A DNA stretch of 64,000 nucleotides from an uncultured Pseudomonadales bacterium (GCA_964556485.1 CAZKVV010000003.1:56610-120609); one strand, 5' to 3'. Positions 6,633 through 31,051 are shown, numbered from the stretch's first letter. The notes: a model not told the origin generated them from the letters alone. Made by a program: numbers and translations.

Positions 6633-6983
6633 CTATTTATACTCTGAAACAAATACGATTAATCGAAATCGAAGCAATAAATACCCTAACACAATTTGCC
6701 AGTACAAACAAAAGAAAGTAACGGTATTTGAAAAAAAAGTTACACTATCACACAACAACCAGTGAGAATTTGAACATGACAAAATCATTCTTAACAGTGG
6801 AACAAAAGAAAGCTTCCACACTAAATTTACTACAGCCAGTATGCCGAGTGGAGTCAATGATAACCAAATAAAAAGTTTTTCCTTCACTAAGGATTGCATG
6901 GTCTGATACGGATGAATCAGCAGCCCAGCGGTGATACTCACAACGGCATATAAACTGGATGCAATTAACTGTTTTTTACTCAT
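6633..6983 (-). CDS. small polytopic membrane protein, hypothetical
   Basis: Internal ATG at 6981-6983 overlaps the upstream stop (TAATG). Hydrophobic 116-aa product. Third gene of the ECF sigma operon. Confidence 0.3.
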   Translation of the reverse strand: MSKKQLIASSLYAVVSITAGLLIHPYQTMQSLVKEKLFIWLSLTPLGILAVVNLVWKLSFVPLLRMILSCSNSHWLLCDSVTFFSNTVTFFCLYWQIVLGYLLLRFRLIVFVSEYK

Positions 6984-7168
6984 TAGCGTTTTTCTGCAAT
7001 CTCTAACAACAATGCCGTGACCACTGCCGCACCTACTAATACTTGCCATGAATGAGTACCAAAAAAAGCCGTGAAAACATCCAATTTTTTAGGCAGAAGT
7101 GGACTTTTTGTAAGTTGCGCCTGAAATAGTGCTTCTTCTTGAAGCTTTTCTAAAAAAGTATTTGACAT
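6983..7168 (-). CDS. putative anti-sigma factor, short with one TM segment
   Basis: 61 aa from an internal Met (MSNTFLEKLQEEALFQ...VLVGAAVVTALLL) immediately downstream of the ECF sigma gene. Confidence 0.3.
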   Translation of the reverse strand: MSNTFLEKLQEEALFQAQLTKSPLLPKKLDVFTAFFGTHSWQVLVGAAVVTALLLEIAEKR

Positions 7169-7169
7169 A

Positions 7170-7700
7170 TTAATTTTTAAGCCACAAAAACTTAAACTCT
7201 TCTCTGGCTCTAAAAAGATCGGATTCAACTGCTTTCACAGTGGTACCCAACTGCACTGCAATTTCCTTAACTTTTGCTTTATCAATATATTTTCGTTGCA
7301 ACAGTTCACTATACCCAACGCTCATTTGACTTAATACCAATGCTACTTTGTCTGAAAGTTCTTGACTATCTGCCAGCTTTTCCTCCAGAAAAAATTCTGA
7401 AAGCGGTAGTGCCCGTAAGGCATTCTTGGCGTATTTTTTTCGATAATAGTCTGCAATCTCATGACGTAAAACAGCATTCATCCACGTCCACAGACTGGAA
7501 GCACCTCTAAAAAGGGGCATTTGTCTCAGGCAATTAATAAATGTCTGTTGTGTTAATTCTTCCGCATCTTTGGTGTTGGAAATTTTTTGTAACGCTACCG
7601 CAAAAATTCTGTCATGATAGCTCGAAAACCACTGGGAGACTGCTTTAGAGTCACCAGTTTTCAGTTTTTCAAGCAATGTTGATTCTGATAAAATGTGCAT
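7170..7700 (-). CDS. ECF-type sigma-70 family sigma factor
   Basis: 176 aa. Region 2-like FAVALQKISNTKDAEELTQQTFINCLRQ. Region 4-like VKEIAVQLGTTVKAVESDLFRAREEF. ATG at 7698-7700. Confidence 0.75.
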   Translation of the reverse strand: MHILSESTLLEKLKTGDSKAVSQWFSSYHDRIFAVALQKISNTKDAEELTQQTFINCLRQMPLFRGASSLWTWMNAVLRHEIADYYRKKYAKNALRALPLSEFFLEEKLADSQELSDKVALVLSQMSVGYSELLQRKYIDKAKVKEIAVQLGTTVKAVESDLFRAREEFKFLWLKN

Positions 7701-7729
7701 AAGTAAAGTCTGATATACTATACCACGTA

Positions 7730-8089
7730 ATGCAATGGACTATCGTTCCCCAAGCGTATGCTCAAACTGCTGCCTGCCAGCCAGGACAAGGTGGAGTTGA
7801 CCTCGGCAACTGCCTTCGGCTTGCTGACGACACTCCCGTAAGTATGGTCTATACTAGCCCCGCTTTTCTCGTTAATCTCATCGTCAGCAACCTTTTTATT
7901 ATCTCTGGCGTGCTTTTGGTTGGTCTAATTATTACCGCTGGCTATAAATTCATCACCAAAGGTAAAGAGGGTGTGCAAGAAGCACAACAGATTCTCACCA
8001 ACGCATTGCTTGGCTTTATTCTTATGTTTTCAGCATACTGGATTGTACAAATTATCGCCCTGATAACCGGAGCAGATATACTATTATAA
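7730..8089 (+). CDS. pilin-like two-TM protein (divergent member, paralog A)
   Basis: 119 aa. AYAQTAAC signal-like segment, then two hydrophobic helices separated by a short charged loop (TKGKEGVQEAQQ). Confidence 0.45.
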   Translation: MQWTIVPQAYAQTAACQPGQGGVDLGNCLRLADDTPVSMVYTSPAFLVNLIVSNLFIISGVLLVGLIITAGYKFITKGKEGVQEAQQILTNALLGFILMFSAYWIVQIIALITGADILL

Positions 8090-8096
8090 TACCATT

Positions 8097-8549
8097 ATGA
8101 GAAAATATCTTTTTTTTACTCTAACCGCACTTTTTTTGGCTGTATTACTAGGTGTGCGTGTGGCAAATCCAGTTTTTGCACAAACTGACATACTTGACGC
8201 AGTTGGCACCATTGATAAACCACCTGGTGTTGCTGAATTTGATGAGGCGGGCGGTATTGCTGAAGGTGACATCGGCATCCTCTTTTTCGCTTCAAGAGTA
8301 ATTGCAATCGTAACTATTTTTGCTGGAATTTGGACATTCTTTAATGTCCTGATGGCAGGATTTACCTATGTTACTTCAAGTGGAAATGCACAATCTCACA
8401 CTCTGGTGCGCGACAAACTTACCATGAGTGTGCTAGGAATTCTTTTGATAGTTACCGTATACACCGTTTCTGGCTTGATTGGTGTCATTTTCTTTGGTAA
8501 TGCGACCTACTTATTAAACCCAGTTATTGAAGGGCCAGCAGCAATCTAA
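8097..8549 (+). CDS. VirB2/TrbC-like pilin family protein (paralog B)
   Basis: Signal peptide (cleavage near VFA-QT), TM1, loop YVTSSGNAQSHTLVRDKL, TM2. Confidence 0.55.
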   Translation: MRKYLFFTLTALFLAVLLGVRVANPVFAQTDILDAVGTIDKPPGVAEFDEAGGIAEGDIGILFFASRVIAIVTIFAGIWTFFNVLMAGFTYVTSSGNAQSHTLVRDKLTMSVLGILLIVTVYTVSGLIGVIFFGNATYLLNPVIEGPAAI

Positions 8550-8551
8550 CT

Positions 8552-9091
8552 ATGAAGTCTTTTGCAACCACTGCCACACTCCGTTTTTCTAAACTGTTAC
8601 TCTTTGCTTTTTTTCTACTTGTTCCTTTTTTTACCCAAGCTGAACCTGCGTTTGCTCAAACCTGCTCATACAATAATCAATGTATTAACAATCAACGATG
8701 CTTTTGTATTTATGGTTACTGCGCAATTACCCAATCACCCTGTGGCTCAGCGATAATTGGTGATGTCGAACCACCAAAAGGAGTTGCAGAATATAATGAA
8801 GAATCGGGTGGTGAGGTAGGATTATTATTGTTTGCATCTCGAGTCATACAATTATTATCTGTCATTGCAGGACTTTTTGTGGGCTATAACTTCATTACTG
8901 CGGGCTTTACCTATGTTGGTTCAGCAGGAAATCCACAAGTGCATGCCCAGGTAAAAGATAAACTCACCTATGGATTCATGGGACTAGCATTGATTGTCAG
9001 TGCTTATACACTCGCCGGCATCTTCGGACTCCTATTCTTTGGCGATGCTGGATTTGCACTCAATCCATCCTTGGGGGGTGCTGTACAATAA
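8552..9091 (+). CDS. VirB2/TrbC-like pilin family protein with Cys-rich insert (paralog C)
   Basis: Signal peptide, Cys-rich module (CSYNNQCINNQRCFCIYGYC), TM1, loop YVGSAGNPQVHAQVKDKL, TM2. Confidence 0.55.
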   Translation: MKSFATTATLRFSKLLLFAFFLLVPFFTQAEPAFAQTCSYNNQCINNQRCFCIYGYCAITQSPCGSAIIGDVEPPKGVAEYNEESGGEVGLLLFASRVIQLLSVIAGLFVGYNFITAGFTYVGSAGNPQVHAQVKDKLTYGFMGLALIVSAYTLAGIFGLLFFGDAGFALNPSLGGAVQ

Positions 9092-9112
9092 AAATTAGTA
9101 TATAATTGAGCC

Positions 9113-9481
9113 ATGTTGACGTTACTTGCACAATTTGGCAATGGATTTGACACTTCGGATGCTCCGTTTGCTGAAGACCTCACTACAAATGAGGGAGCAA
9201 CAGCTAGTCTCGAACTTTTCATTTCCAACATGATTGGTGTTCTCACCGTCTTTGCAGGCCTTTTCTTTATTGTTTATTTCGTCATGGCAGCTCTAACTTG
9301 GGTTACGTCTGGTGGTGACACGGGGAAACTTCAAAATGCTCGAGAAAGAATGTTGCATGGCGTTCTAGGTCTGGTTATTGTCGTAGCAGCATACGGAATA
9401 GTTGGCCTCATCGGTTCAATTGTCGGATTCGACCTACTCAATCCTGCAGAAAAATTATTAGAACTTGCTCCAACTCCATAA
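9113..9481 (+). CDS. VirB2/TrbC-like pilin family protein (paralog D)
   Basis: TM1, WVTSGGDTGKLQNARER loop, TM2. No signal peptide from this ATG, so the start may be elsewhere. Confidence 0.5.
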   Translation: MLTLLAQFGNGFDTSDAPFAEDLTTNEGATASLELFISNMIGVLTVFAGLFFIVYFVMAALTWVTSGGDTGKLQNARERMLHGVLGLVIVVAAYGIVGLIGSIVGFDLLNPAEKLLELAPTP

Positions 9482-9927
9482 TGACTATGCATACAAAACA
9501 TCTCAAAAAAACGCTCTCATTTTTACTCGCACTCAGTAGTCTTGCATTGAGTCCCGTGCGAGTTTTGGCAGCCATTAACAACCCAGCCTTATCTGAAGAT
9601 CTCGGCGGAAGCGCCACTGACTCAGAAGCTGCAACATCTGGAGCCATATTTGTCAGTTACCTCGTTTCTCTCTGGGAAGCAGCCATTAATATTGGCGGCT
9701 TACTCGTTCTCATGTACTTCATTTGGGGTTCTATGGAGTGGGTTACTTCTGGCGGTGACGCTGGAAAACTAGAAAAGGCTCGTGGTCGAATGATGCACGC
9801 AGTTATTGGTTTACTGATTTTAGTTTCAAGTTTTGTGATCCTTGGTTATGTCAGCACAGCACTCTTCGGCGAAGACTTCTCAATTCTCAATCTATCGTTC
9901 CCGACACCAGGTAATGACGGACCATAA
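9481..9927 (+). CDS. VirB2/TrbC-like pilin family protein (paralog E)
   Basis: Signal peptide, TM1, WVTSGGDAGKLEKARGR loop, TM2. TAATG overlap with paralog D. Confidence 0.55.
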   Translation: MTMHTKHLKKTLSFLLALSSLALSPVRVLAAINNPALSEDLGGSATDSEAATSGAIFVSYLVSLWEAAINIGGLLVLMYFIWGSMEWVTSGGDAGKLEKARGRMMHAVIGLLILVSSFVILGYVSTALFGEDFSILNLSFPTPGNDGP

Positions 9928-9935
9928 AGGCATTT

Positions 9936-10274
9936 ATGAAAATTGCTCAAGTTGAACTTAATATCGCAGACGAAGCAATTAGCAGAGGCGCGCCTGGCAC
10001 CGCAAATCTCGATCCTACCGATGGTACTGTTGGCTTTGGAAGTTTAGTAAGCAGTATCTTATCGTTTGTTATTCTCATCGCAGCTATTCTAGTTCTCTTC
10101 TACTTAATTTGGGGTGGAGTCGAATGGATTACCTCTGGAGGAGATAAGGGTAAGCTCGAAAAAGCAAGACAACGCATCACCAGCGCAATTCTCGGCATTG
10201 TGGTACTGTCAGGCGTACTTGCAATCTTTAGCGTGGTGCAACAATTCTTGGGCATTGAAGTGTTCAGCTTCTAA
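9936..10274 (+). CDS. VirB2/TrbC-like pilin family protein (paralog F)
   Basis: TM1, WITSGGDKGKLEKARQR loop, TM2. Confidence 0.5.
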   Translation: MKIAQVELNIADEAISRGAPGTANLDPTDGTVGFGSLVSSILSFVILIAAILVLFYLIWGGVEWITSGGDKGKLEKARQRITSAILGIVVLSGVLAIFSVVQQFLGIEVFSF

Positions 10275-10334
10275 CCAAAATTATTGAAATCGTAAAAATG
10301 CCGATGTGTAGTAGAATATATACAAGATAGACAC

Positions 10335-10363
10335 TTGACTCAAGGTCAAAGAAAACTAATAAT
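10335..10363 (+). promoter_or_regulatory. sigma-70-like promoter for pilin paralog G
   Basis: TTGACT at 10335-10340, 16-17 nt spacer, TAATAAT at 10357-10363. Followed by AAGGAG (10383-10388) and ATG at 10392. Confidence 0.45.
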
Positions 10364-10391
10364 AGTAAAAGTGAAAAAAAATAAGGAGACT

Positions 10392-10793
10392 ATGACAAAA
10401 TCACTTAAAAAATATGTAGCCTCTGGCTTAACTACAGGAGCAGCACTGCTCACTGCAGTTTCTCCAGTGTTTGCTCAAATTAATGCCGCAGAAATCGACC
10501 CTGGTAACGGTTTCGCAACAGACATCGGTACGCTCATTAATGCAGTACTATCATTCGTGATGGTTATCGCAGCTTTGCTCGTATTTATGTACCTCATTTG
10601 GGGTGGTATTGAATGGATTACTGCTGGTGGTGACAAAGGTAAAACTGAGTCTGCTCGTAACAAAATTACTGGCGCTATTCTCGGTCTTATCGTTCTCGCT
10701 GCTTCATATGCAATTCTTCTCATTGCTCTTAACTTCATCGGTTTCGCAAACCTTGGTGAAGCATTCAGCAACGTGAAGAGTATCAACGACTAA
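10392..10793 (+). CDS. VirB2/TrbC-like pilin family protein (paralog G, candidate major subunit)
   Basis: Start moved to the ATG at 10392 after a perfect AAGGAG RBS. The ORF-track start at 10335 is a TTG that coincides with the -35 hexamer. Signal peptide (VFA-QI), TM1, WITAGGDKGKTESARNK loop, TM2. Own promoter and terminator. Confidence 0.6.
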   Translation: MTKSLKKYVASGLTTGAALLTAVSPVFAQINAAEIDPGNGFATDIGTLINAVLSFVMVIAALLVFMYLIWGGIEWITAGGDKGKTESARNKITGAILGLIVLAASYAILLIALNFIGFANLGEAFSNVKSIND

Positions 10794-10823
10794 ATTGATA
10801 CAGTTATCTACAACGTAACTAAG

Positions 10824-10852
10824 AAACACCCCGTTAACAGCGGGGTGTTTTG
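10824..10852 (+). terminator. rho-independent terminator after pilin paralog G
   Basis: Stem AACACCCCG (10825-10833) pairs with CGGGGTGTT (10841-10849), 7-nt loop, then a T-run. Confidence 0.6.
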
Positions 10853-10859
10853 ATGTATT

Positions 10860-11444
10860 TTGATATATAATACCCATATGAGAACATTTCTGCATTCAAC
10901 CCTATTAGCAACACTTTTAGTATTTGCAGTAGTTTTATTAGCAGGCAGCATGTCAACCACTCAGATTTTCGCAGATACAGGTACAAATAACACTGCTCTT
11001 ATAAAAAATGGTGATGTTCTCTATCTTGGCAAGACGCTCACTGCTAAAAACTCTGCAACTCGCTCAGCAAGCACTACAAAATCTGCAACCAGTTCAGCGG
11101 GATTATCAATGACTCGATATACTATCTTCCCCAATGTTCAAATTGAAATTCCTCAAGGATTTGCCAAGGATATTGGCTCTATCATCAATGCGCTACTCAG
11201 CTTAGTGATGTTGTTTGGAGCTTTGTTGGTATTTCTGCAACTTATTTTAGGAGGACTGTTCTGGATAACTGCGGGCGGAGATAAAGGAAAAACTGAGGCA
11301 GCTCGCCAACGCATACTTTCTGCGCTACTTGGTCTAATCGTGCTTTCAGCCAGTTTTGCAGTTTTTTCACTTGCACTTAACTTCATAGGATTTGCTTCAA
11401 TCGAAGAAGTGTTTCAAAACACACGCACTATAACTGGTGAATAG
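10860..11444 (+). CDS. VirB2/TrbC-like pilin family protein with extended N-terminal region (paralog H)
   Basis: Signal peptide, S/T-rich spacer of about 80 aa, TM1, WITAGGDKGKTEAARQR loop, TM2. Confidence 0.55.
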   Translation: MIYNTHMRTFLHSTLLATLLVFAVVLLAGSMSTTQIFADTGTNNTALIKNGDVLYLGKTLTAKNSATRSASTTKSATSSAGLSMTRYTIFPNVQIEIPQGFAKDIGSIINALLSLVMLFGALLVFLQLILGGLFWITAGGDKGKTEAARQRILSALLGLIVLSASFAVFSLALNFIGFASIEEVFQNTRTITGE

Positions 11445-11464
11445 CTTCGTTTATAAACACCGAG

Positions 11465-11947
11465 ATGACCGTATTTAAAAACCTTGCTATACTAACTAGT
11501 ATGACAATCACCAGCCGATGGAAAAATAGTACAGCTAGCATTAAAAAAATCGCCACTTTGCTTTTTGTAGTGGCAGTTTCAACGATAGTGAGCGCTCAGC
11601 CTGTTCACGCTCAGACGAGAGAATGGGGCGGTGTTTGTTTAGGCCCAACCGAAGGATCAGCAGATGTGGCAACTATCCAAGGTCTTGAATGCTTAATCGC
11701 TAATGTGTTCATTGTTATTATCACTCTCGTTGGCCTTGCTGGCTTTGTGATGTTTTGTGCTGGCGGAATTATCTGGATGTTTTCAGGAAATGATAGCAAA
11801 AACACTGCTACAGCCAGACAAACTATGACCTATGCGGTTATTGGAATAGTGGTAACCCTCAGCGCATTTATTGTTCTTAACCTAATCTCTGCCTTCACCG
11901 GCATTAGCATCATTACTCAATTCAGAATTCCTACTTCAGAGATGTAG
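11465..11947 (+). CDS. VirB2/TrbC-like pilin family protein (paralog I)
   Basis: Signal peptide (VHA-QT), TM1, IWMFSGNDSKNTATARQ loop (compare the VirB2 WMFG segment), TM2. Confidence 0.5.
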   Translation: MTVFKNLAILTSMTITSRWKNSTASIKKIATLLFVVAVSTIVSAQPVHAQTREWGGVCLGPTEGSADVATIQGLECLIANVFIVIITLVGLAGFVMFCAGGIIWMFSGNDSKNTATARQTMTYAVIGIVVTLSAFIVLNLISAFTGISIITQFRIPTSEM

Positions 11948-11977
11948 CATCTCTTCCTGTAAGGTATAATAAATTTT

Positions 11978-14900
11978 GTGCACACACCTAAGATCCAATC
12001 TGTTGTAACTGTGGTAGCAGCATGTTTTTTTGCTTTTGCTGCGGGCGTGCAAGCTCAGTGTGCGGCTGGACAAATCGATCTCTTGGAATACATGGGACCA
12101 GAAAATGGCCAAAGCTACGATTTGCGATACTGTGGCCCGGCAGGTAGTGGATCCGAACCAATCCAAGTAAATCGAGATACAATTCTTACTGTTGAAGGCC
12201 CAAAGCCCGGCTTCTACCTCAATAAAGGCGGAAATTATGAAGCTTACTTTTATGACAATCAAAACATCTATTTATATGAAGATACTTCTTGGGATGAAAC
12301 ATGTCCAAATGGAGAAGAAGCGTTCTACCGTGTTTTTCGGCCTGGTGGAGCAGCGGGTGGACCTATTCAACGATGTGTGAATATTGGAACAGCCATGTCT
12401 TCTCAACAGTATGTCGTTGGCTACAGTGAAGCTGGATACAACCGAGGAGATGCTGGCACTGTATGTAATAACGGTTACCAACCCACAACCGTTTCCCAAA
12501 TCGTTCAATCGGGTGCAAATAATCCTTACTCACCCACCATTCCAGGTAGTCTTCCAGAGGATACCATCGTGCTCACAAATGCGAGTGGCGCTGGTGCGGG
12601 CGAATCAAAATATTATACCAAAGGGTATGGCCTCACTGCGTTTAGAGCAGTTGATGCCAGTGGTAATGTTTTTTTCTGGAGTTCTTTCTATAAGGATGGC
12701 GTGAGTACTAGCGAGCCCAATTTACAATGCAGCGACAGTGACGTAGAAACTATGACTGGGTATGACACATCAGGCTTTCCAGAATACACCGCAACGGAGG
12801 ATACATACTATCTGCATCCAATTTCTGGTATGTTATCCCCAGGTAGAAGTGTGGAAAAAATCAGAAAAGACCTGGCGCTTTCTGGATATGAAGCATATTG
12901 CGCAGCTGATAATGTCAAAATAAAACCTGAAATTAACACAGCAGAACTCGTTAGGCGCTACTTAGAACTGAATCCCGGTGGCATCAATTTATTGGGTGAA
13001 TCAGTAGAAACTCTTGATGTTTCCACAGCTCAATTCCCCATCTGGAGAGAGTTGGATGCTAAAAAATTTTTGACAACCTCAATAGAGGAGTACTTCAGTT
13101 TTAAAGATGTATATACCCAAATTCCTTCTACAGCAGAACTCAATTCTGCACCCATCAACTCACTATTGAGCGTTGAACAACGTTGCGTCCAAAGTGCAAA
13201 AGTACTTCTTGCTACAGAACTTATGTGCGAAAAACTACTCAATCCTGGTGAATGCGCACCACTCGCCCAACCTGTTCCAGGCACCAACTACAGCGTTGAT
13301 AGCTTGAGGGCAGACCTACACGACTTCATTCCAAAATATAGAGATGGTGGTATTGGGGAAGGATGCAGAGAACTTTACGAAGACCAAGACACCGCGCTTG
13401 AGTTTAAAAAAGGTTTGCAAAACATGCCCCTTGAAATTAATACAGCATATCGCTTTGCATTTTTAGTTGCTGCAATAGAAATGAAACCCCCTGGCAATAG
13501 TAGTGTTGCCACCAGCATCTTTAATTTTTTTACCGGCAGAACTGAAGATCAGCAACCAAAACATGAGGTGCTCGTAACTGCTTTTAAAGTACCAGACATT
13601 GCCACCAACAAGGGTGGAGGTGATGATTCCGGAAGTCAGTATTGGAATGACCCTTCATATCTTACCCGTAATGTACTTATTCCCAGAAAAAGAGTGGCGG
13701 AAATTGAAGATGTGGAACGTCCTGCCCGAAGGCAACAAATTTTAGATGCAGCAGTAAGTGCGGCAGTGCAAAACGATGGAAGTAAAATTTATTGCTATGA
13801 CGGCACATTTCCAGGTGGGATTGGTGTTGAAGCTTGTGAAAATGAAGTTGGCAAAGCAGTGGTAGATCTTATTAATGGTAGTGCTCAGGGATGTAGCGAA
13901 AGAATTGAGCCAGTGATGCAACTGTTTAGTGCAGCTGGTTTTGGAGATGTACTCGATCCATATGGACGTTTTTACATTAATGAATGGGGTCAACAAATCT
14001 TGCTAAACATGTTTGGCGCCGGCTCCTACCCAGACAGAACACATGTTGTAGACAATAATTACATGGATCCGCAAAAGGCAAAAATTGATACTCCGTGGTA
14101 CGAAAAAATTAAATCACGCTGGACCATTAATTCTAATACTTGGCCCGCAGCTACTAATGAAACCAAGGTTTCATTTTACCTCGTCTACCCTTTTGGCTAC
14201 GAGATTGACCAAATTGAAAACGTACTCAAAAATACCTTTTTCACCAAAGATCAATTAGCAACACTCGAAACTGATCCAGCAATTAAGGATCGCTTCCCAC
14301 TGAAGGGAGATCGCAGTGGACTCTCTGGAGGTGGGGTATCTTGGGATTTTGTCGATCCAGAAGAAACTTGTGATAATGGCACTGCAACCCCGGGACCCTG
14401 TACAAAAAGCGTTGATATTACACTGTCGCAAGAAAGTGCTGAGTATGGTGTGTATGGAGCTCGACTTGGATATTGGCTGCGTCAGATTCAAAAATCACTC
14501 AACAGCAGTGTGAGTAGTACACAAAATTATCTATCAAATTGTCAAAGCTTGGAGCAATTTTTCACTGGGCGCTGTGGCAAAGGTTCATCTGGCTCAGGAA
14601 CCGGGACTGGTCCGGGCACAGGCACCGGCACGGGAAACAATCTTGTCGCAGTAGCACAATGTCTCCCCAACAGCCCTCGCATCACGTCTGGAGAAACTGC
14701 TACTCATATTTATACGGATGCCACCAACACCTGCACCACCTTCGTTTCGAACATACATAACATACCAGAGTGGAAAAATCCCAATGATCCAGCTAAAGAC
14801 TGTGCCAATTTATACTCGTATGTTGCCTGCACCTACCCCAATACCTTAATACAGAATGGCGTGAGTAGCAGTGGCCAATTTAACACAACTAGTAGCACCA

Positions 14901-15205
14901 CTGCTTGCGAATACGTCGTTGCGCAAGCACGAGCTGCAGGAATAAGTCCTCGGTTTGCACTTGCCATGTGGGGTGAAGAGTCGGGATTTAGTAGCTATCG
15001 AGTTCCAGATTTTGGCGTCATTTCTCAACCAGCACAAGACATGGGCGCTCAAGTTGGGAGCTTTGTCAGAACGGCAAATAGTTATTCAACACTCATCAAT
15101 TTCTTAGAAGCATATTCTGGTGAAGTTCGAGGTAGTAATGTCTTTTGCAACAATCCCGCATTTGTAGGTCGTCTCAAAACCTTCTACGACTTCCTCGGGC
15201 CATGA
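11978..15205 (+). CDS. large secreted protein (1075 aa) with C-terminal lysozyme-like (SLT/glucosaminidase-type) motif, candidate T4SS cell-wall hydrolase
   Basis: GTG start. Signal peptide (AFAAGVQA-QC). Gly/Thr-rich linker (GSGTGTGPGTGTGTG). C-terminal ALAMWGEESGFSSY resembles the catalytic E-S motif of lytic transglycosylases/glucosaminidases. Confidence 0.55.
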   Translation: MHTPKIQSVVTVVAACFFAFAAGVQAQCAAGQIDLLEYMGPENGQSYDLRYCGPAGSGSEPIQVNRDTILTVEGPKPGFYLNKGGNYEAYFYDNQNIYLYEDTSWDETCPNGEEAFYRVFRPGGAAGGPIQRCVNIGTAMSSQQYVVGYSEAGYNRGDAGTVCNNGYQPTTVSQIVQSGANNPYSPTIPGSLPEDTIVLTNASGAGAGESKYYTKGYGLTAFRAVDASGNVFFWSSFYKDGVSTSEPNLQCSDSDVETMTGYDTSGFPEYTATEDTYYLHPISGMLSPGRSVEKIRKDLALSGYEAYCAADNVKIKPEINTAELVRRYLELNPGGINLLGESVETLDVSTAQFPIWRELDAKKFLTTSIEEYFSFKDVYTQIPSTAELNSAPINSLLSVEQRCVQSAKVLLATELMCEKLLNPGECAPLAQPVPGTNYSVDSLRADLHDFIPKYRDGGIGEGCRELYEDQDTALEFKKGLQNMPLEINTAYRFAFLVAAIEMKPPGNSSVATSIFNFFTGRTEDQQPKHEVLVTAFKVPDIATNKGGGDDSGSQYWNDPSYLTRNVLIPRKRVAEIEDVERPARRQQILDAAVSAAVQNDGSKIYCYDGTFPGGIGVEACENEVGKAVVDLINGSAQGCSERIEPVMQLFSAAGFGDVLDPYGRFYINEWGQQILLNMFGAGSYPDRTHVVDNNYMDPQKAKIDTPWYEKIKSRWTINSNTWPAATNETKVSFYLVYPFGYEIDQIENVLKNTFFTKDQLATLETDPAIKDRFPLKGDRSGLSGGGVSWDFVDPEETCDNGTATPGPCTKSVDITLSQESAEYGVYGARLGYWLRQIQKSLNSSVSSTQNYLSNCQSLEQFFTGRCGKGSSGSGTGTGPGTGTGTGNNLVAVAQCLPNSPRITSGETATHIYTDATNTCTTFVSNIHNIPEWKNPNDPAKDCANLYSYVACTYPNTLIQNGVSSSGQFNTTSSTTACEYVVAQARAAGISPRFALAMWGEESGFSSYRVPDFGVISQPAQDMGAQVGSFVRTANSYSTLINFLEAYSGEVRGSNVFCNNPAFVGRLKTFYDFLGP

Positions 15206-16300: not shown

Positions 16301-17956
16301 ATGGCCAAAAAAGCCGGATTATTACTAGTACTATTTTTTTCATTTCTTTTTGTAAGAGTGGGCGAAGTTAGCGCTCAGGGCGAAGGCTTTGGTGCGCGGT
16401 ATGAGACAAGTCTACGTGACAGCTACAATCAAGCTATTCAAGATTGTGGAGCTCCCTCATTAGAGTGTTTAGTTCATCATGTGTTTAAATACATTCAAAT
16501 TGAGATTGCCAACACACCTTCGCAATCTCCTCCAATACCGATTAGTGGCGCACCACTCACGGAGGAACAAAGACTAGCTCGAGTTGGAGGTGGTGGCGCA
16601 TCATATGGTTTTATGTACTTGATTGGTCAAATGTATCAGAATCCTGCCGCAAGTACTCACACCTATGTTGCAGATCTTTTGGAAAGCGCCAATATTGCCA
16701 CACCCGCTTATGCGCAAGGTTTAGGTTTTGCCTCTCTTGATCCAATTTTAGAGCTATGGAAAGTGTTTAGAAATATAGCATACATGTTCTTTGTGGTGAT
16801 ATTTATTGTTATTGGATTCATGATTATGTTTAGACAAAAAGTTGGTGGTCAGGCTGCAGTCACTGCTCAACAAGCCATTCCCAGCATTATTGTCAGTCTG
16901 ATTTTTGTAACCTTCTCATATGCAATAGCCGGCTTTATGATCGACATGATGTATATTACCATGTACTTAATGGTTGGTATTTTCGATGCTAGCGGCTCTA
17001 ACATTGGCCAAATTATTGACTACGACATTCTCTCACTCATGGGACAACTCTACAAACCAACTGCGGGAAATTTTGCTGGAAATATTGATATTGTCACCAA
17101 TTTACTTGCTGGTATGGTTGAGACTGAAGCAATTGCTGGAGCTCTTGGCGTAGTTGGCGGTCTTACACTTTCACTCGTACTTGCTGTTGCGGTATTGATA
17201 GGTACTTTTAAACTCTTCTTTGAACTACTTCGCTCTTACTCTTCTGTCATTATTGAAGTTGTTGTTGCACCACTCAAATTAATGTTGGGCGCAATTCCTG
17301 GTAATAATGCCTTTAAGCCCTGGATAAAAAATATTTTTGGCAATCTTATAGCTTTCCCTACTGTTTTATTTATAGTTATCCTGTTTTACCAATTCACCGA
17401 TTTGGGAGATAGAACAGATGGTGGGTTTATGCCGCCCTTTCTACTTGGCCGTGGACAATCAGGCGCCATCGCCACACTCATGGGCTTAGCATTAATCCTC
17501 GCTCTCCCAGAAATTGTCAAAGATGTAAAGAAGAAAGCGGGTGCAAGCGAAGGATTTGGAACAATGATTCAACAAGCAGCAAGCGCCAGACTGAGCAAGG
17601 GTGCAAAAGTAGCTGGCGACTATTCTCTACCATACACTGGAGCAGCTATGTCGGGAGCAAAGGGTCTGGGGCAAGCTTATAGTGCTCACAAACAAGATAG
17701 TGATGCAACACTCGGATCATTCCTCAGAGATGGCATGTGGAATGGAGTTGGTCCAAAAGGAAATAAATTTGGAGGAATTGGCCCTGGTCTCTCAACAGGT
17801 TTCAAAAAAGGAAGAAATGCTCGAGTTTTCTTGGATAGATTAAGAAGCGGACAAGCTTTCGACCCACACAATACTGAAGACTTGCTAAGAAGAATCGCCG
17901 AGGGTAAAGATAAGGACGGCAAAACAATCAAAGAAGAAGTTAGGGGTTCTAAATAA
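16301..17956 (+). CDS. polytopic membrane protein, VirB6/TrbL-like candidate
   Basis: 551 aa. Signal peptide, extracytoplasmic N-domain of about 150 aa, then at least five TM helices and a charged C-terminal tail. Lies within the T4SS locus. Confidence 0.45.
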   Translation: MAKKAGLLLVLFFSFLFVRVGEVSAQGEGFGARYETSLRDSYNQAIQDCGAPSLECLVHHVFKYIQIEIANTPSQSPPIPISGAPLTEEQRLARVGGGGASYGFMYLIGQMYQNPAASTHTYVADLLESANIATPAYAQGLGFASLDPILELWKVFRNIAYMFFVVIFIVIGFMIMFRQKVGGQAAVTAQQAIPSIIVSLIFVTFSYAIAGFMIDMMYITMYLMVGIFDASGSNIGQIIDYDILSLMGQLYKPTAGNFAGNIDIVTNLLAGMVETEAIAGALGVVGGLTLSLVLAVAVLIGTFKLFFELLRSYSSVIIEVVVAPLKLMLGAIPGNNAFKPWIKNIFGNLIAFPTVLFIVILFYQFTDLGDRTDGGFMPPFLLGRGQSGAIATLMGLALILALPEIVKDVKKKAGASEGFGTMIQQAASARLSKGAKVAGDYSLPYTGAAMSGAKGLGQAYSAHKQDSDATLGSFLRDGMWNGVGPKGNKFGGIGPGLSTGFKKGRNARVFLDRLRSGQAFDPHNTEDLLRRIAEGKDKDGKTIKEEVRGSK

Positions 17957-28423: not shown

Positions 28424-29632
28424 ATGCGAGAACATCCAATTCCACAAGACATTACGGGATACCGCTTCCACATTATTGGGAGTATGACTCTCAAGCAATT
28501 TGTGGAGATTTCAATTGGTGTAGTCATTGGCGGCATCATTTATTCAACCAACCTTCCCGCAGTAATCAAGTTTCCGCTCATTCTATTTTCCGTTGCACTC
28601 GGAGGTATGGCTGCTTTTCTACCAATTGAAGACAGGCCGCTTGATCACTGGATCATCACTTTTTTTAGGGTGATGTACAACCCAACTCAATTTTTTTGGA
28701 GACGTGAGCCCAACATTCCCGACTGTTTTAACTTTACTCCCAACGCTCAAACCATGATTCATGAACCAGAAATTGATCTAGGCCCTGCAAAAAAACAACG
28801 TATCCGTGAGTATATGACCTCCGTACCAAATACAGTCGATCCTTTTGCACTCGATGCTTCCGAAAACTCTCGTATTTCATCAATCATGAGTAGTTTTTCA
28901 AGCACTGAGGTGACCTCAGTACAAGTAACACCAACAAAACTTCCTCAACATATATCCGAGAAACCACAACTTGGCGTACGCGTGAGAAGTCTTCGCGCAA
29001 AAGCAAAAGAGAATGTGGTCTTTATAGCTGAAGATGTAGAAATGACAACTACACACGTGCCTACTGGACCACGAATTATTGAGGAAACAGTTAATGGCGT
29101 TGAGACTAATCTTGCCACTCAATATCTCGAAAGAGAACAACTTACTAAGCAATCTCAAAACGTGTCGGAAGTTGCTGGGAATATTGCAATTCCTGCTCTA
29201 GAAGAAATTCATGTTGTTCCCCAAGCAGAAGATGGGACGGTCGCGCCTGCTATCGACACAACCACACAACAAATGATTTTTGATAATTCTCAAGGAATGG
29301 CAATTAGTGAGGGAATAGCCTCAGAAGAAGCGGGTTTTAACACTTCACTACCATTTCCAGAACCTCCAAGTGAACCAAATAAATTAGTGGGCATGGTACT
29401 CAGTCCAACTAATGAATTAATCGTCAATGCTATTGTTGAAATTCAAACACCAACTGGTGCCGTTGCAAGGGCTGTAAAAACCAACACACTTGGTCAATTT
29501 TTCATCACCACTCCTCTCGAGGATGGAGACTATAATTTAGTTGTTGAAAAAGATGGGTACCAGTTTAGCAACCAACATATACAAATAACCGGAGAAATTG
29601 TTCAACCAATAGAAATAAGAAGTCTTGGTTGA
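28424..29632 (+). CDS. two-TM protein (VirB3/PrgI-like candidate) fused to a CarboxypepD_reg-like beta-sandwich domain
   Basis: N-terminal 2-TM hairpin (FVEISIGVVIGGIIY ... PLILFSVALGGMAAFL). C-terminal GMVLSPTNELIVNAIVEIQTPTGAV...GDYNLVVEKDGYQ. Confidence 0.4.
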   Translation: MREHPIPQDITGYRFHIIGSMTLKQFVEISIGVVIGGIIYSTNLPAVIKFPLILFSVALGGMAAFLPIEDRPLDHWIITFFRVMYNPTQFFWRREPNIPDCFNFTPNAQTMIHEPEIDLGPAKKQRIREYMTSVPNTVDPFALDASENSRISSIMSSFSSTEVTSVQVTPTKLPQHISEKPQLGVRVRSLRAKAKENVVFIAEDVEMTTTHVPTGPRIIEETVNGVETNLATQYLEREQLTKQSQNVSEVAGNIAIPALEEIHVVPQAEDGTVAPAIDTTTQQMIFDNSQGMAISEGIASEEAGFNTSLPFPEPPSEPNKLVGMVLSPTNELIVNAIVEIQTPTGAVARAVKTNTLGQFFITTPLEDGDYNLVVEKDGYQFSNQHIQITGEIVQPIEIRSLG

Positions 29633-29665: not shown

Positions 29666-31051
29666 ATGAATGAAACCGTTATTCACTCCACTACTCAAAA
29701 ATTTCTCGATATTTTTGATATTACCAATAATTTAGTGATTCTCAAAGACGGTACTACTTCATTAATTATTCAAGTTGATGCTATGAACTTTGGCTTATTA
29801 GCCGAAGAAGAACAAGATAGCATCATGTATGCCTATGCCGGGTTGCTAAACTCACTTAACTACCCGATCCAAATCATCGTACATTCTCAAACCAAAGATG
29901 TAACTGGTTATCTGAGTATCCTAAAGGATCAAGAAGACACTGCCACCAGTAGAGAAAAACAGCAAAGAATTCGCCGCTATCGTGAATTTGTGAGTAATCT
30001 TATTAAAGAACGCAATGTTTTGGATAAAAAATTTTACGTTACCATTTCTGCAACACCTCTCGAGCTTGGTATGATTGCTCCACAGAGTTTTATCCCGGGA
30101 AAAAGTGAAATTAAAATCACTGGTGAAGAGCGCACGGCTGTTATTGAAAAAGCACGTTATATTCTCGAACCAAAACGAGATCATTTACTCGCACAATTTT
30201 CTCGAATTGGACTGTTTTCTCGACAGTTAACCACTCAAGAAATGATTCAGTATTTTTATATTAGTTACAACCCCGAGGCTGCAGAAGGGCAGCAAATCGC
30301 CGATACTAATAATTACACAACACCCATGGTTACGGCAGGTGTTGAAGGAATGTCCTCTATGAACGCAACACAAATTCCAACCCCTATATCACAGGTTGCA
30401 GCAACTGCACCAGCTGAAACTCAAGCAGTAGTACAACCGACAACTCCTGTTGTCGCACCAACGCCAGCAATAGAGCAAGTGGCCGTAGCAGCGCCACCAG
30501 TCCAAGAAGCTCAGCCAGTTTATTCTGCAGCACCTGTTGCCCCAGTACCACTTCCTGTTGAAGCACAGCTCGAGCAGGTTCCTCAGCAACTGTTAGAACA
30601 ACAACCAGAACCTGTCATTCAAATTGAAAGAGCTCCTGTAGATGTGGTGGTTCCTCAATCGCAATCGGGTGCGTACACGCCAACAATGATGACTACCCCC
30701 ATTCCTCTTGAAACACCCACTCCAACTTCGGTGTCACCAGAACCTATTGCCGCTATTCACCATACTGAAACAGCAGCCTCAACAGAGCCAACTGTAGATA
30801 TGAGTGTTGCTCTAAGCACCACTCCGACTGAATTGCCAAAACCAACGCTACCAGCGGGAATGACTACGACTCAACCAATTAGCGCTAGTGCTGTTACTCC
30901 GCAAGCGCCTGTAGAAGTTCAAACACAGACACCTGTTCCTCAAGAAGCTACTGCGCAAGATGCCATTAATACAACGTTGGGACAACTTGGGGGAATATCG
31001 GTGACGCCAGATAATTCAAACGCAACACTTCCTCCACTTCCTGAAATTTAG
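29666..31051 (+). CDS. VirB4/TrbE N-terminal-domain-like protein with long Pro/Thr/Ala/Val-rich low-complexity tail
   Basis: N-terminal LVILKDGTTSLIIQVDAMNFGLLAEEEQDSIMYAYAGLLNSLN parallels the extreme N-terminus of TrbE/VirB4 (LNKDGSF...RGPDL...E...LNNALRRL). Followed by about 230 aa of PTAV-rich sequence. Confidence 0.45.
   Translation: MNETVIHSTTQKFLDIFDITNNLVILKDGTTSLIIQVDAMNFGLLAEEEQDSIMYAYAGLLNSLNYPIQIIVHSQTKDVTGYLSILKDQEDTATSREKQQRIRRYREFVSNLIKERNVLDKKFYVTISATPLELGMIAPQSFIPGKSEIKITGEERTAVIEKARYILEPKRDHLLAQFSRIGLFSRQLTTQEMIQYFYISYNPEAAEGQQIADTNNYTTPMVTAGVEGMSSMNATQIPTPISQVAATAPAETQAVVQPTTPVVAPTPAIEQVAVAAPPVQEAQPVYSAAPVAPVPLPVEAQLEQVPQQLLEQQPEPVIQIERAPVDVVVPQSQSGAYTPTMMTTPIPLETPTPTSVSPEPIAAIHHTETAASTEPTVDMSVALSTTPTELPKPTLPAGMTTTQPISASAVTPQAPVEVQTQTPVPQEATAQDAINTTLGQLGGISVTPDNSNATLPPLPEI

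What the first reader, a model, noticed from the sequence alone, without database searches (positions are those of the whole stretch)
7730..11947. Array of nine tandem paralogous pilin-like genes heading a T4SS-like locus
Nine consecutive same-strand genes (A-I) encode small proteins with the same architecture: a signal peptide (absent from the annotated starts of D and F), a first TM helix, a short conserved loop and a second TM helix, as in VirB2/TrbC pilins. Five members share a near-identical loop W(I/V)T(S/A)GGD(K/A/T)GK(L/T)ExAR; B, C, I and A diverge. Members carry individual elaborations: a Cys-rich knottin-like insert in C and an S/T-rich extension in H. Paralog G alone has its own TTGACT...TAATAAT promoter, a perfect AAGGAG RBS and a strong terminator, which suggests a highly expressed major subunit with the others as minor or variant subunits. 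T4SS loci normally encode one pilin. An expanded, diversified pilin family points to antigenic or host-range variation or a heteropolymeric surface filament. It may be a lineage-specific (CPR-like) adaptation for cell-cell or episymbiotic contact.
Basis: partly seen in the sequence, partly recalled or inferred. Interest (0 to 1): 0.75.

Follow-up and report, generated by a model that had tools for sequence, protein, structure and literature searches.

The report
Nine-gene T4SS pilin array, Patescibacteria
Nine neighbouring genes for small two-helix membrane proteins of the "type IV secretion pilin" family sit beside a secretion-machine locus in a tiny uncultivated (Patescibacteria) bacterium; such arrays are already published, but comparison with about 80 related genomes shows a fixed, ordered set of distinct subunits with one separately expressed major member, not a variable repertoire.

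Summary
Nine same-strand ORFs (7730-11947) encode paralogous two-TM hairpin proteins. Eight match Pfam PF18895 (T4SS_pilin), six of them above the curated cut-off. G has a sigma-70 promoter, an AAGGAG site and a strong terminator. One correction: A also lacks a signal peptide, as D and F do.

This kind is already published. A 2025 paper reports 441 arrays of 2-11 VirB2-like pilins in Patescibacteria, commonest in Microgenomatia and Saccharimonadia. A Saccharibacterium has an essential six-pilin array.

What I add comes from 81 related loci. Gene order A-(B/C)-D-E-F-G-(H)-I is collinear in 69 of 72 arrays. Same-position proteins from different genomes are 45-61% identical; paralogs within one genome are 27%. 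Only G-type genes carry an SD (70% of loci) and a terminator (73%).

This favours a heteromeric assembly with G as major subunit over antigenic or host-range variation. It is a new member of a known kind and of moderate interest.

The parts
7170..7700 (-). ECF-type sigma factor, transcribed divergently from pilin A (29 nt between the two start codons)
   Evidence: Pfam Sigma70_r2/r4_2/ECF. NCBIfam TIGR02937, 69.8 bits against a cut-off of 42.9. Homologs were found in 57 of 81 related loci; in 40 the gene lies adjacent to and divergent from the A-type gene, and in 16 it lies further away. A regulatory link to the array is inferred only.
6633..7049 (-). Conserved small 2-TM protein downstream of the sigma gene; a possible anti-sigma or partner, function not tested
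   Evidence: Two hydrophobic peaks. Homolog present in 56 of 81 related loci. No Pfam match.
7730..8089 (+). Pilin A (119 aa): no signal peptide, 2-Cys ecto-motif, first gene of the array
   Evidence: PF18895, 24.3 bits, E 3.4e-5. TM helices. Conserved motif C.PG.GG.DLG.CL...PAFLVNL in orthologs. TGaTATACT box ends 10 nt before the ATG. 71% of A-type genes have such a box.
8097..8549 (+). Pilin B (150 aa): signal peptide plus hairpin; B/C subfamily
   Evidence: No Pfam hit, but 49% core identity to C. Signal peptide and 2 TM. B-type orthologs identified in 48 loci.
8552..9091 (+). Pilin C (179 aa): signal peptide, 6-Cys ecto-module, hairpin
   Evidence: PF18895, 27.5 bits. The 6-Cys module C.Y..QC.NN..C.C...C...PCGSAIIG.VEPP.GV is conserved in 9 relatives examined and absent in 3.
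9113..9481 (+). Pilin D (122 aa): no signal peptide, acidic N-tail
   Evidence: PF18895, 31.3 bits. N-terminus MLTL(I/L)AQFG.GF is conserved and the protein is 122 aa in all close relatives. N-tail charge -5.
9481..9927 (+). Pilin E (148 aa): signal peptide plus hairpin
   Evidence: PF18895, 33.7 bits.
9936..10274 (+). Pilin F (112 aa): no signal peptide. It lacks the C-terminal Gly-linker and 6-Cys module that F orthologs carry in L003, L005, L007 and L012
   Evidence: PF18895, 31.9 bits. Ortholog sequences.
10335..10391 (+). Promoter and ribosome-binding site of G: TTGACT (10335-10340), 17-nt spacer, AATAAT (10358-10363), AAGGAG (10383-10388)
   Evidence: The same TTGAC(T/G)-N17-(T/G/A)ATAAT plus TAAGGAG layout occurs in L009, L003, L005, L007, L012 and L032. 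An SD of 5 nt or more is found at 70% of G-type genes against 0-14% of other types.
10392..10793 (+). Pilin G (133 aa): candidate major subunit
   Evidence: PF18895, 36.4 bits, the best of the nine. 630 homologs; the mature core is nearly invariant. Between-genome core identity is 60.8%, the highest of all types. AF2 model shows a helical hairpin, 42-77 and 82-116, pLDDT about 90 or higher across the hairpin.
10823..10861 (+). Intrinsic terminator after G (13-bp GC-rich stem plus T-run)
   Evidence: -23.3 kcal/mol, z -3.7. A hairpin of -12 kcal/mol or stronger follows 73% of G-type genes against 4-14% of other types.
10878..11444 (+). Pilin H (188 aa from ATG 10878): G-derived copy with a 66-aa S/T-rich ecto-extension; the fastest-evolving member
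   Evidence: 68% core identity to G. PF18895, 22.3 bits. Orthologs are only 45-58% identical in close relatives whose G is 77-95% identical. A second G-like copy follows G in 25 of 68 arrays. TATAAT ends 6 nt before the ATG.
11465..11947 (+). Pilin I (160 aa): signal peptide, conserved 2-Cys motif; last gene of the array
   Evidence: PF18895, 32.4 bits. Motif W.GVC.G...DVATIQGLECLIANVF is conserved even in distant loci. Between-genome identity 55.4%.
11978..15205 (+). 1075-aa secreted protein of unknown function immediately after the array
   Evidence: Signal peptide. Adjacent downstream of I in 32 related loci. No Pfam, NCBIfam or PDB match; my guess of an SLT-like C-terminus was not supported.
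16301..17956 (+). 551-aa polytopic membrane protein, VirB6-like by fold
28424..29632 (+). PrgI/VirB3-like membrane protein with a C-terminal CarboxypepD_reg domain
   Evidence: PF12666 PrgI, 26.1 bits against a cut-off of 27; PF13620, 35.6 bits. Two N-terminal TM peaks.
29666..31051 (+). 461-aa protein, weakly TrsD-like (VirB4 N-terminal-domain-like)
   Evidence: NCBIfam TrsD E 5e-4; N-terminal part of Mycoplasma VirB4 E 1e-6; both far below cut-off. BLASTP against the window's own VirB4 found nothing.
31066..33072 (+). VirB4 ATPase, Gram-positive (CD1110) type
   Evidence: NF045971, 387.9 bits against a cut-off of 325. PF19044, AAA_10 and CagE_TrbE_VirB.
33190..34788 (+). dnaA, followed by dnaN, rnpA and yidC: the locus lies beside the chromosomal replication-origin gene cluster
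58301..60850 (-). VirD4-like coupling-protein homolog, 25 kb from VirB4
   Evidence: PF10412 TrwB_AAD_bind, 48.2 bits; TraG-D_C. NF045973 CD1115 family, 49.8 bits, below cut-off.

Best explanation
The nine genes are a complete copy of the tandem 'T4SS pilin array' of Patescibacteria (Microgenomatia-type lineage), encoded beside a chromosomal, Gram-positive-type T4SS next to dnaA.

Topology. Each product is a helical hairpin membrane protein with both ends outside the cell and a short basic loop inside. Six members enter with a cleavable signal peptide (A-x-A | Q site). A, D and F insert through an acidic N-tail.

The set is not a collection of interchangeable variants. It is an ancient, ordered group of at least seven distinct orthologous classes: A, B/C, D, E, F, G and I. 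B/C and G/H are optional extra duplicates.

Proposed roles. G has its own sigma-70 promoter, one of the genome's rare Shine-Dalgarno sites and its own terminator, and it is the most conserved class. I propose it is the abundant shaft subunit. The others would be low-abundance specialised subunits for priming, adaptor or tip positions. They carry class-specific, often disulfide-stabilised outer modules and come from the flanking transcription units (A-F, and H-I).

Assembly. VirB4 would extract these subunits from the membrane and assemble them on the VirB6-like platform into a pilus-like or stalk-like structure crossing the wall. H, the fast-evolving S/T-rich copy of G, is the best candidate for a contact-specific part.

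Status of each step.
- Shown by computation: family membership, predicted topology, orthology and collinearity, expression signals, and the locus components.
- Inferred: insertion route, cleavage, assembly into a filament, stoichiometry, and the role in cell-cell contact or transport. The last rests on analogy with the essential array of Southlakia epibionticum.
For: Family: PF18895 hits for 8 of 9, six above the cut-off.

Orthologous classes: 69 of 72 arrays are collinear with the window. The nearest neighbour is 'other genome, same class' for 531 of 582 proteins and 'same genome' for only 16. Identity is 45-61% for same class between genomes and 27.5% for different classes within a genome. 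Class-specific motifs are conserved. The commonest compositions are ACDEFGI, ABDEFGI and ABCDEFGhI.

Purifying selection: dN/dS 0.03-0.26.

G as major subunit: SD in 70% of loci against 0-14% for other classes; terminator hairpin in 73% against 4-14%; flanking gaps about 86 and 68 nt against a few to about 50 nt for the other junctions. The -35/-10/SD layout is conserved in relatives. Only 6 of 50 window genes have any SD-like site. G has the lowest dS and the highest conservation.

Machine: VirB4 CD1110 family, 387.9 bits; PrgI-like; VirB6-like fold; VirD4-like.

Literature: arrays of 2-11 pilins with mean identity 25%, near dnaA (PMC12102498). The pilin series in S. epibionticum is essential (PMC10633639; PMC12857230), which argues against redundancy.
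Against: No filament made of these proteins has been seen in any Patescibacterium (PMC12857230; literature search).

There are no expression or proteomic data for this organism. Codon-bias support for G is weak (ENC 44 against 47-55, on short genes).

The related loci were found through G-specific peptide patterns, which may inflate G's apparent conservation.

dS is saturated, so dN/dS values are rough.

The array lies 16.5 kb from PrgI/VirB4, and two intervening genes are on the other strand.

Polypeptides elsewhere with 6-17 fused hairpin domains fit a membrane-embedded assembly at least as well as an extruded pilus.
Confidence: 0.6

Rival explanations
1. Variant repertoire. The paralogs are alternative, interchangeable major subunits that provide antigenic or host-range variation, as proposed for TrwL of Bartonella Trw and VirB2 of Anaplasma. 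The 2025 Patescibacteria T4SS paper suggests the same for these arrays.
For: Paralogs are highly divergent: mean 27%, maximum 50%. The outer regions differ most. H evolves fast (45-58% identity where G is 77-95%) and is present in only part of the arrays. B/C and G/H duplications vary between genomes. There is precedent in Bartonella (PMC2610397), and PMC12102498 makes the suggestion.
Against: 69 of 72 arrays are collinear and orthologs are one-to-one across genomes. Only 16 of 582 proteins have their nearest relative in the same genome. dN/dS is at or below 0.26. Class-specific motifs are conserved over long distances. Paralog DNA is at most 73% alike over 84-94 nt and there are no inverted repeats, so no substrate exists for gene conversion or inversion. 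The promoter/SD/terminator asymmetry is fixed on one class. The pilin series is essential in S. epibionticum.
Confidence: 0.12
2. Membrane or wall-spanning machine parts rather than a pilus. The hairpins form a heteromeric ring, stalk or short pseudopilus inside the T4SS channel. This could be a substitute for the VirB5/VirB2 stalk in a monoderm, with no long external filament.
For: Gram-positive-type T4SSs generally lack pili (PMC12102498; PMC10633639). No pilus has been observed so far. A VirB6-like stalk-base protein sits next to the array. Proteins with 6-17 fused hairpin domains exist elsewhere, which implies side-by-side packing in one membrane-anchored chain. The nearest curated family is the Mycoplasma ICE 'pilin-like' protein NF045849 (G: E 2.8e-7, sub-threshold), from wall-less organisms with no known pilus.
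Against: One strongly and separately expressed class suggests a high-copy polymer rather than fixed stoichiometry. Extracellular Cys-rich and S/T-rich modules suggest exposure beyond the membrane. In part this rival differs from the best explanation only in the length of the structure.
Confidence: 0.22
3. Unrelated small membrane proteins, such as holin-, immunity- or bacteriocin-like proteins, that resemble pilins only because any two-TM hairpin does, with no T4SS role.
For: Simple hairpins give non-specific fold matches. Weak stray Pfam hits to holin and DUF families. The array is 16.5 kb from PrgI/VirB4.
Against: An independent curated profile (PF18895) matches eight members. The VirB6-like gene is two genes downstream and this arrangement is syntenic in 32 loci. 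The published survey found VirB2-like pilin genes in 1,948 VirB4-containing assemblies, with the pilin near virB4 in 1,135 of them. The pilin series inside the T4SS cluster of S. epibionticum is essential.
Confidence: 0.03

Closest known systems
Patescibacterial T4SS VirB2-like pilin arrays (Quinonero-Coronel et al. 2025, PMC12102498), including the essential six-pilin array of Southlakia epibionticum ML1 (Wang et al. 2023, PMC10633639) and the 'Sec-secreted array' of Nanosynbacter lyticus TM7x
   Same: Tandem PF18895-type pilin genes. Low within-array identity: 27% mean and 50% maximum here, against 25% and 54% published. Chromosomal MPF_FATA-type T4SS near dnaA. No relaxase detected. Microgenomatia-type lineage, where such arrays are reported as abundant. 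Nine genes falls within the published range of 2-11.
   Different: Nothing categorical. My comparison adds points not stated in those papers: fixed gene order and one-to-one orthology across about 70 species-level genomes; a seven-class core; one class (G) with its own promoter, SD and terminator; and a VirB6-like gene beside the array, recognisable only by fold. Whether the six Saccharibacterial pilins correspond to these classes was not tested.
TrbC/VirB2/TraA conjugative pilins of diderm T4SS (Pfam PF04956) and archaeal conjugative pilins (PDB 8dfu, 8dft)
   Different: The sequence match is below the family cut-off (21.4 against 27.9 bits) and hhalign is not significant. There are nine paralogs instead of one. 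Three members have no leader. The array is not adjacent to virB3-virB4. The host is a monoderm. No filament or lipid association has been shown.
Tandem trwL (virB2) and trwJ copies of the Bartonella Trw system; VirB2 paralogs of Anaplasma
   Same: Several tandem VirB2-like genes in a chromosomal T4SS that serves host contact rather than conjugation.
   Different: Those are lineage-specific duplications thought to be under diversifying selection and to give surface variants (PMC2610397). Here the paralogs are ancient, collinear, conserved class by class and show no sign of positive selection.
Major and minor pilin gene sets of type IV pili and type II secretion pseudopili (for example GspG with GspH-K). 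This is an analogy only.
   Same: One abundant major subunit plus a conserved, ordered set of several divergent, non-redundant paralogs encoded together.
   Different: No homology: the fold is different (a single N-terminal helix plus a globular domain), as are the prepilin peptidase processing and the ATPase family. Functional equivalence here is an inference.
Mbov_0395-family pilin-like conjugal transfer protein of Mycoplasma ICEs (NCBIfam NF045849)
   Same: It is the best curated-family match for 7 of the 9 paralogs (G: 30.1 bits, E 2.8e-7). Its partner ATPase family, Mbov_0397, also matches the window's VirB4 (256 bits). Both hosts are monoderm or wall-less.
   Different: All scores are below the curated cut-offs (40 and 590 bits). 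In Mycoplasma ICEs it is a single gene as far as I know (from memory, not checked).

Membership tests
Pfam PF18895 T4SS_pilin | Profile match at or above the gathering score (26.6 bits) | tested here: met
   C 27.5, D 31.3, E 33.7, F 31.9, G 36.4, I 32.4 bits. A (24.3) and H (22.3) are just below. B has no hit but is 49% identical to C over the core.
Pfam PF18895 T4SS_pilin | Two transmembrane helices joined by a short basic loop | tested here: met
   All nine have this: hydropathy peaks 2.2-3.0 and loops with 2-4 K/R. The AF2 hairpin for G has pLDDT about 90 or higher across the hairpin.
Pfam PF18895 T4SS_pilin | N-terminal cleavable signal peptide | tested here: inconclusive
   B, C, E, G, H and I have n/h/c regions and an A-x-A site. 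A, D and F lack an h-region, and this is conserved in their orthologs. I used a hydropathy and motif check only; no dedicated signal-peptide predictor was available.
Patescibacterial T4SS pilin array (PMC12102498) | Two or more pilin genes in tandem with low mutual identity | tested here: met
   Nine contiguous genes; mean identity 27%, maximum 50%. Published values: 2-11 genes, 25% and 54%.
Patescibacterial T4SS pilin array (PMC12102498) | Within 20 coding sequences of an MPF_FATA-type virB4, on the chromosome, often near dnaA, without a relaxase | tested here: met
   VirB4 (CD1110 family, 387.9 bits) lies 10 genes after pilin I, and dnaA follows it directly. No relaxase family was found among the ORFs of 100 aa or more scanned with Pfam. 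This holds for the window only.
Patescibacterial T4SS pilin array (PMC12102498) | Patescibacteria host | tested here: met
   Syntenic relatives are Pacebacteria, Woesebacteria, Microgenomates and Patescibacteria MAGs. The window has no rRNA for direct placement.
Patescibacterial T4SS pilin array (PMC12102498) | Required for epibiotic growth | not testable with these tools
   Known only for S. epibionticum, from Tn-seq.
TrbC/VirB2 conjugative pilin (Pfam PF04956) | Profile match at or above the gathering score (27.9 bits) | tested here: not met
   G 21.4 bits (E 2.9e-4); D 16.5 bits. hhalign of A2 or A1 against seven annotated VirB2/TrbC proteins gives probability 1% and 25%, aligning the cleavage motif only. 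Some G orthologs do carry a precomputed PF04956 hit.
TrbC/VirB2 conjugative pilin (Pfam PF04956) | Helical-hairpin pilin fold | tested here: inconclusive
   [not shown]
TrbC/VirB2 conjugative pilin (Pfam PF04956) | Polymerises into an extracellular, lipid-associated filament | not testable with these tools
   No structural or imaging data exist. The literature says a pilus is hypothetical.
Variant-pilin expansion (Bartonella Trw / Anaplasma type) | Lineage-specific recent duplications with diversifying selection | tested here: not met
   69 of 72 arrays are collinear. The nearest relative is in the same genome for 16 of 582 proteins. dN/dS is at or below 0.26, with dS saturated. No long DNA repeats.
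VirB6/TrbL family (for the 551-aa neighbour) | Sequence-profile match | tested here: not met
   No Pfam or NCBIfam hit, even at E up to 10.
VirB6/TrbL family (for the 551-aa neighbour) | Polytopic helical fold like VirB6 | tested here: met
   [not shown]

The most novel reading that the evidence does not exclude
The Microgenomatia-type T4SS builds a genuinely heteromeric pilus or stalk from seven or more ancient, non-interchangeable VirB2-like classes. One dedicated, separately transcribed major pilin (G) forms the shaft. The others take fixed priming, adaptor or tip positions on a divergent VirB6 platform. This would be a T4SS counterpart of the major/minor pilin division of labour in type IV pili, an organisation not known for any T4SS.

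A corollary concerns origin. The pilin component may have been inherited with the monoderm (Mollicutes-ICE-like) machinery rather than borrowed from diderm systems.
Probability: 0.4. Interest if true: 0.65.

Novelty: new member of a known kind. Interest (0 to 1): 0.4.

Why it matters
The T4SS and its pilin series are essential for the epibiotic life of the one genetically tractable Patescibacterium, yet their function is unknown and no pilus has been seen.

This locus adds no new kind of system. The comparative picture does turn a vague idea ('many variable pilins') into specific, testable predictions:
- which gene should be the major subunit (G-type), and so the target for antibodies, tagging or cryo-ET;
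- which classes should be non-redundant minor parts;
- which member (H) may carry host specificity;
- which neighbouring protein is the missing, highly divergent VirB6 of Microgenomatia.

It also argues against reading these arrays by analogy with the antigenic variation of Bartonella and Anaplasma.

Tried and rejected
Tests that gave nothing or were inconclusive:
- PDB sequence search with the G-type profile: only chance hits to CD20.
- Foldseek of the G model against the PDB: nothing significant.
- hhalign against seven annotated VirB2/TrbC proteins fetched from plasmids: only the signal-cleavage motif aligns.
- tblastn of G against 72,556 plasmids: nothing.
- My guess that the 1075-aa protein ends in an SLT/VirB1-like domain ('AMWGEESGF'): no Pfam or PDB support, so I dropped it.
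- BLASTP of the 461-aa protein against the window's VirB4 N-terminus: nothing. Only weak NCBIfam TrsD-type hits were found.
- Codon usage (ENC, GC3) as an expression proxy: G is only slightly biased and the genes are too short.
- dN/dS: dS is saturated (above 1), so the values serve only as a rough sign of purifying selection.
- The motif TGATATAHT as a special array promoter: 3 hits against 1.5 expected, not enriched. I replaced it with the broader -10-box analysis.
- Rfam scan of the window: no RNA family, so no rRNA for taxonomy.
- The AlphaFold-database fold library was not available.
- Exact-protein look-up of the 551-aa protein: no contig record. The cluster look-up gave no names.

An error of mine, corrected. 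An early note said that F orthologs of 190 aa have an N-terminal signal peptide. The extra part is in fact a C-terminal Gly-linker plus a 6-Cys module.

Rejected ideas:
- Annotation error as the reason for the missing signal peptides. In-frame stops exclude longer N-termini and the short N-termini are conserved.
- Recent tandem amplification.

Full report
1. WHAT IS THERE

All are on the + strand and are separated by 0-117 nt.

Pfam's T4SS_pilin model (PF18895) matches eight of them independently. C, D, E, F, G and I score above the curated cut-off, and A and H just below. B has no hit but is 49% identical to C over the hairpin core. A profile built from the nine finds no further copy anywhere in the 64 kb.

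Each protein has two strong hydrophobic helices and a short loop carrying 2-4 K/R. D-H share the loop motif W(I/V)T(S/A)GGD.GK...AR. The 6-Cys insert of C and the S/T-rich extension of H are there.

G is preceded by TTGACT-17-AATAAT (10335-10363) and AAGGAG (10383-10388, 3 nt before ATG 10392). It is followed by a 13-bp GC-rich stem with a T-run (10823-10861); the region folds at -23.3 kcal/mol, z = -3.7. So the TTG 'start' at 10335 is really the -35 box.

First, A also lacks a signal-peptide core, and an in-frame stop at 7700 rules out a longer N-terminus. Second, G is not the only gene with promoter-like signals (section 4).

2. CONTEXT

The window is chromosomal.
- Upstream lie mevalonate-pathway genes and a divergently transcribed ECF-type sigma factor (7170-7700).
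- Downstream of the array lie a 1075-aa secreted protein without any family match, a 328-aa gene on the other strand, and a 551-aa polytopic membrane protein.
- Next come several large proteins with no family match, followed by a PrgI/VirB3-like protein (26.1 bits against a cut-off of 27) and a weakly TrsD-like 461-aa protein.
- The locus then holds a VirB4 ATPase that passes the curated cut-off of the Gram-positive CD1110 family (387.9 against 325 bits).
- Directly after VirB4 come dnaA, dnaN, rnpA and yidC.
- A VirD4-like gene sits 25 kb further on.
- No relaxase family was detected.

Relatives with the same synteny are Pacebacteria, Woesebacteria, Microgenomates and 'Patescibacteria group' MAGs. 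Several carry an evidently wrong 'Pseudomonadales' label.

3. IT IS A KNOWN KIND

A 2025 survey of 3,035 Patescibacteria genomes used PF18895 among other profiles. It reports 441 arrays of 2-11 VirB2-like pilin genes in 383 assemblies, especially in Microgenomatia and Saccharimonadia. Within-array identity averages 25% with a maximum of 54%. The T4SS is of MPF_FATA type, usually lacks a relaxase and often lies near dnaA (PMC12102498).

[quoted passage not shown] A 2025 review calls them six structurally conserved, sequence-divergent VirB2-like pilins and stresses that a pilus is still hypothetical (PMC12857230). A search for later structural work found none.

The window's array has nine genes, mean identity 27% and maximum 50%, and fits this description in every respect tested.

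4. WHAT THE COMPARISON ADDS

I collected 80 species-level loci through the G-type protein and several metagenome contigs. I then typed every pilin-like ORF by its best match to A-I.

(a) Order. 69 of 72 arrays with six or more typed genes follow the window's order. The commonest compositions are ACDEFGI (14), ABDEFGI (10), ABCDEFGhI (8, the window's type) and ABCDEFGI (7). Complete arrays have 6-11 genes, most often 7.

(b) Orthology. Over 90 core columns of 582 proteins, proteins of the same class from different genomes are 45-61% identical. Different classes in one genome are 27.5% identical. The nearest neighbour is 'other genome, same class' in 531 cases and 'same genome' in 16.

(c) Class signatures conserved over long distances:
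- A: a 2-Cys motif.
- C: a 6-Cys module.
- D: a leaderless N-terminus MLTLIAQFG.
- F: an N-terminus MK(I/L)AQV. In some relatives F also has a C-terminal Gly-linker and 6-Cys module that the window lacks.
- I: the motif W.GVC...DVATIQGLEC.
Cys-rich modules at both the N- and C-ends fit an out-in-out topology.

(d) Selection. dN/dS against three relatives is 0.03-0.26 for all members, although dS is saturated. H has the highest dN and G the lowest dS.

(e) Recombination substrate. At the DNA level the paralogs share at most 73% over 84-94 nt, and there are no inverted repeats.

(f) Expression signals.
- An SD of 5 nt or more precedes 70% of G-type genes against 0-14% of the other classes.
- A strong hairpin follows 73% against 4-14%.
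- G is flanked by gaps of about 86 and 68 nt, against a few to about 50 nt for the other junctions.
- In seven genomes examined by eye, the F-G spacer holds TTGAC(T/G)-N17-(T/G/A)ATAAT and TAAGGAG, and G is followed by a GC-rich hairpin plus T-run.
- In this genome SD sites are rare (6 of 50 genes). By contrast, 14 of 50 genes have a TATAAT-like box ending 4-12 nt before the start codon, against 2.7% at random positions, which suggests leaderless mRNAs.
- Within arrays such boxes sit before A (71% of loci) and before the gene after G's terminator (H 46%, I 52%).
The conserved layout is therefore: leaderless unit A-F | promoter-SD-G-terminator | leaderless unit (H)-I and onward.

Caveat: the loci were found through G-specific peptide patterns, which may favour genomes with a conserved G.

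5. HOW IT MOST LIKELY WORKS

The following were shown by computation only: family, topology, orthology, expression signals and locus parts.

The rest is inferred.
- The hairpins insert with both ends outside. Six use a signal peptide cut at A-x-A|Q. A, D and F use acidic N-tails (charge -2 to -5).
- They form a membrane pool.
- VirB4 and the VirB6-like platform assemble them into a wall-crossing, pilus-like or stalk-like structure.
- G, the abundant and most constrained class, forms the shaft.
- The other classes occupy specific low-copy positions.
- H, a G-derived copy with a variable S/T-rich extension present in 25 of 68 arrays, is the best candidate for a contact-specific element.

The essentiality of the pilin series in S. 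epibionticum fits non-redundancy.

It could still hold for H and for the optional modules.

A serious rival is a short, membrane- or wall-embedded assembly rather than a long pilus. No filament has been seen. In addition, a search of 1.84 billion representative proteins found 76,859 family members, and the top scorers are single polypeptides with 6-17 fused hairpin domains.

6. RELATION TO CANONICAL VirB2

The link is weak at the sequence level. PF04956 scores 21.4 bits against a cut-off of 27.9. hhalign against seven annotated VirB2/TrbC proteins aligns only the cleavage motif. The PDB sequence search is empty.

The best curated-family match is the Mycoplasma ICE pilin-like protein NF045849 (G: E 2.8e-7, below cut-off). 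The window's VirB4 also matches the neighbouring Mycoplasma ICE ATPase family. This hints that the pilin came with the monoderm machinery rather than from diderm systems, a question the 2025 paper leaves open. It is a lead, not a result.

7. VERDICT

The finding is a new member of a known kind. Interest is moderate (0.4). It comes from the testable subunit model and the fold-level identification of a divergent VirB6, not from the existence of the array.

Noticed in passing
window, genome-wide; e.g. 7711-7719 (before A), 8082-8090 (before B), 9101-9106 (before D), 10866-10871 (before H), 11965-11970 (before the 1075-aa gene), 16288-16293 (before the VirB6-like gene): 14 of 50 genes have a TATAAT-like -10 box ending 4-12 nt (mostly 6-7) before the start codon, against 2.7% at random positions. 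Only 6 of 50 have an SD-like site. This suggests the organism makes many leaderless mRNAs, which makes G's AAGGAG exceptional. In related loci the boxes sit mainly before A-type genes (71%) and before the gene after G's terminator.
   Followed up: partly
proteins P0121 (552 aa), P0124 (1775 aa), P0175 (1147 aa) from the representative-protein search; not in the window: The top hits to the nine-paralog profile are single polypeptides with 6, 17 and 11 tandem pilin-hairpin domains ('poly-pilins'). P0121 and P0124, the two read, are continuous ORFs whose internal repeats are clearly related. Their origin and context are unknown. They bear on whether these hairpins work as membrane-embedded assemblies.
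   Followed up: partly
[not shown]
   Followed up: partly
window 6633-7700 (- strand): An ECF-type sigma factor and one or two small membrane proteins are transcribed divergently from pilin A. Sigma homologs are present in 57 of 81 related loci; in 40 the gene is adjacent to and divergent from the A-type gene. This may be a dedicated envelope-signal regulator of the array. No ECF-type promoter motif was searched for.
   Followed up: partly
related loci, e.g. L013:1566-3625, L023:3524-5378, L047:4312-, L049:3435-: Many related genomes carry an extra pair of genes upstream of the array: a 360-510-aa protein and a 115-275-aa protein, each ending in a pilin-like hairpin. The window has no such pair.
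   Followed up: no
L003, L005, L007, L012 (F-type genes) versus window 9936-10274: F orthologs in these relatives are 190-192 aa, with a C-terminal Gly-rich linker and a roughly 60-aa 6-Cys module. The window and its closest relative L009 have a 112-aa F without it. Cys-rich modules thus occur at the N-end (C) or the C-end (F) of different classes.
   Followed up: partly
window 7730-11947 versus NCBIfam NF045849 and NF045975: Seven of the nine paralogs give sub-threshold hits to the Mycoplasma ICE 'Mbov_0395 pilin-like' family (G: E 2.8e-7), which is stronger than their hit to TrbC/VirB2. The window's VirB4 hits the Mbov_0397 ATPase family at 256 bits. This is a possible clue that the pilin is ancestral to the monoderm-type machinery.
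   Followed up: no
window 389-5953 (- strand): A complete-looking mevalonate-pathway cluster lies immediately upstream: two GHMP kinases, a thiolase, an HMG-CoA synthase-like gene and an HMG-CoA reductase, followed by a NUDIX gene. It is syntenic with the array in close relatives.
   Followed up: no
record titles of L009, L011, L013-L016 and many others: Many MAGs that clearly belong to Patescibacteria by synteny, and in some cases by isolate names such as HK-STAS-PATE-16, are titled 'uncultured Pseudomonadales bacterium'. One is titled 'Vitreimonas sp.' and one 'candidate division TM6'. These are probably taxonomy-label errors in the public records.
   Followed up: no
window 1-64000: No Rfam family reaches its gathering score anywhere in the 64 kb, so no tRNA, rRNA, RNase P RNA or riboswitch is detected next to the origin region.
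   Followed up: no
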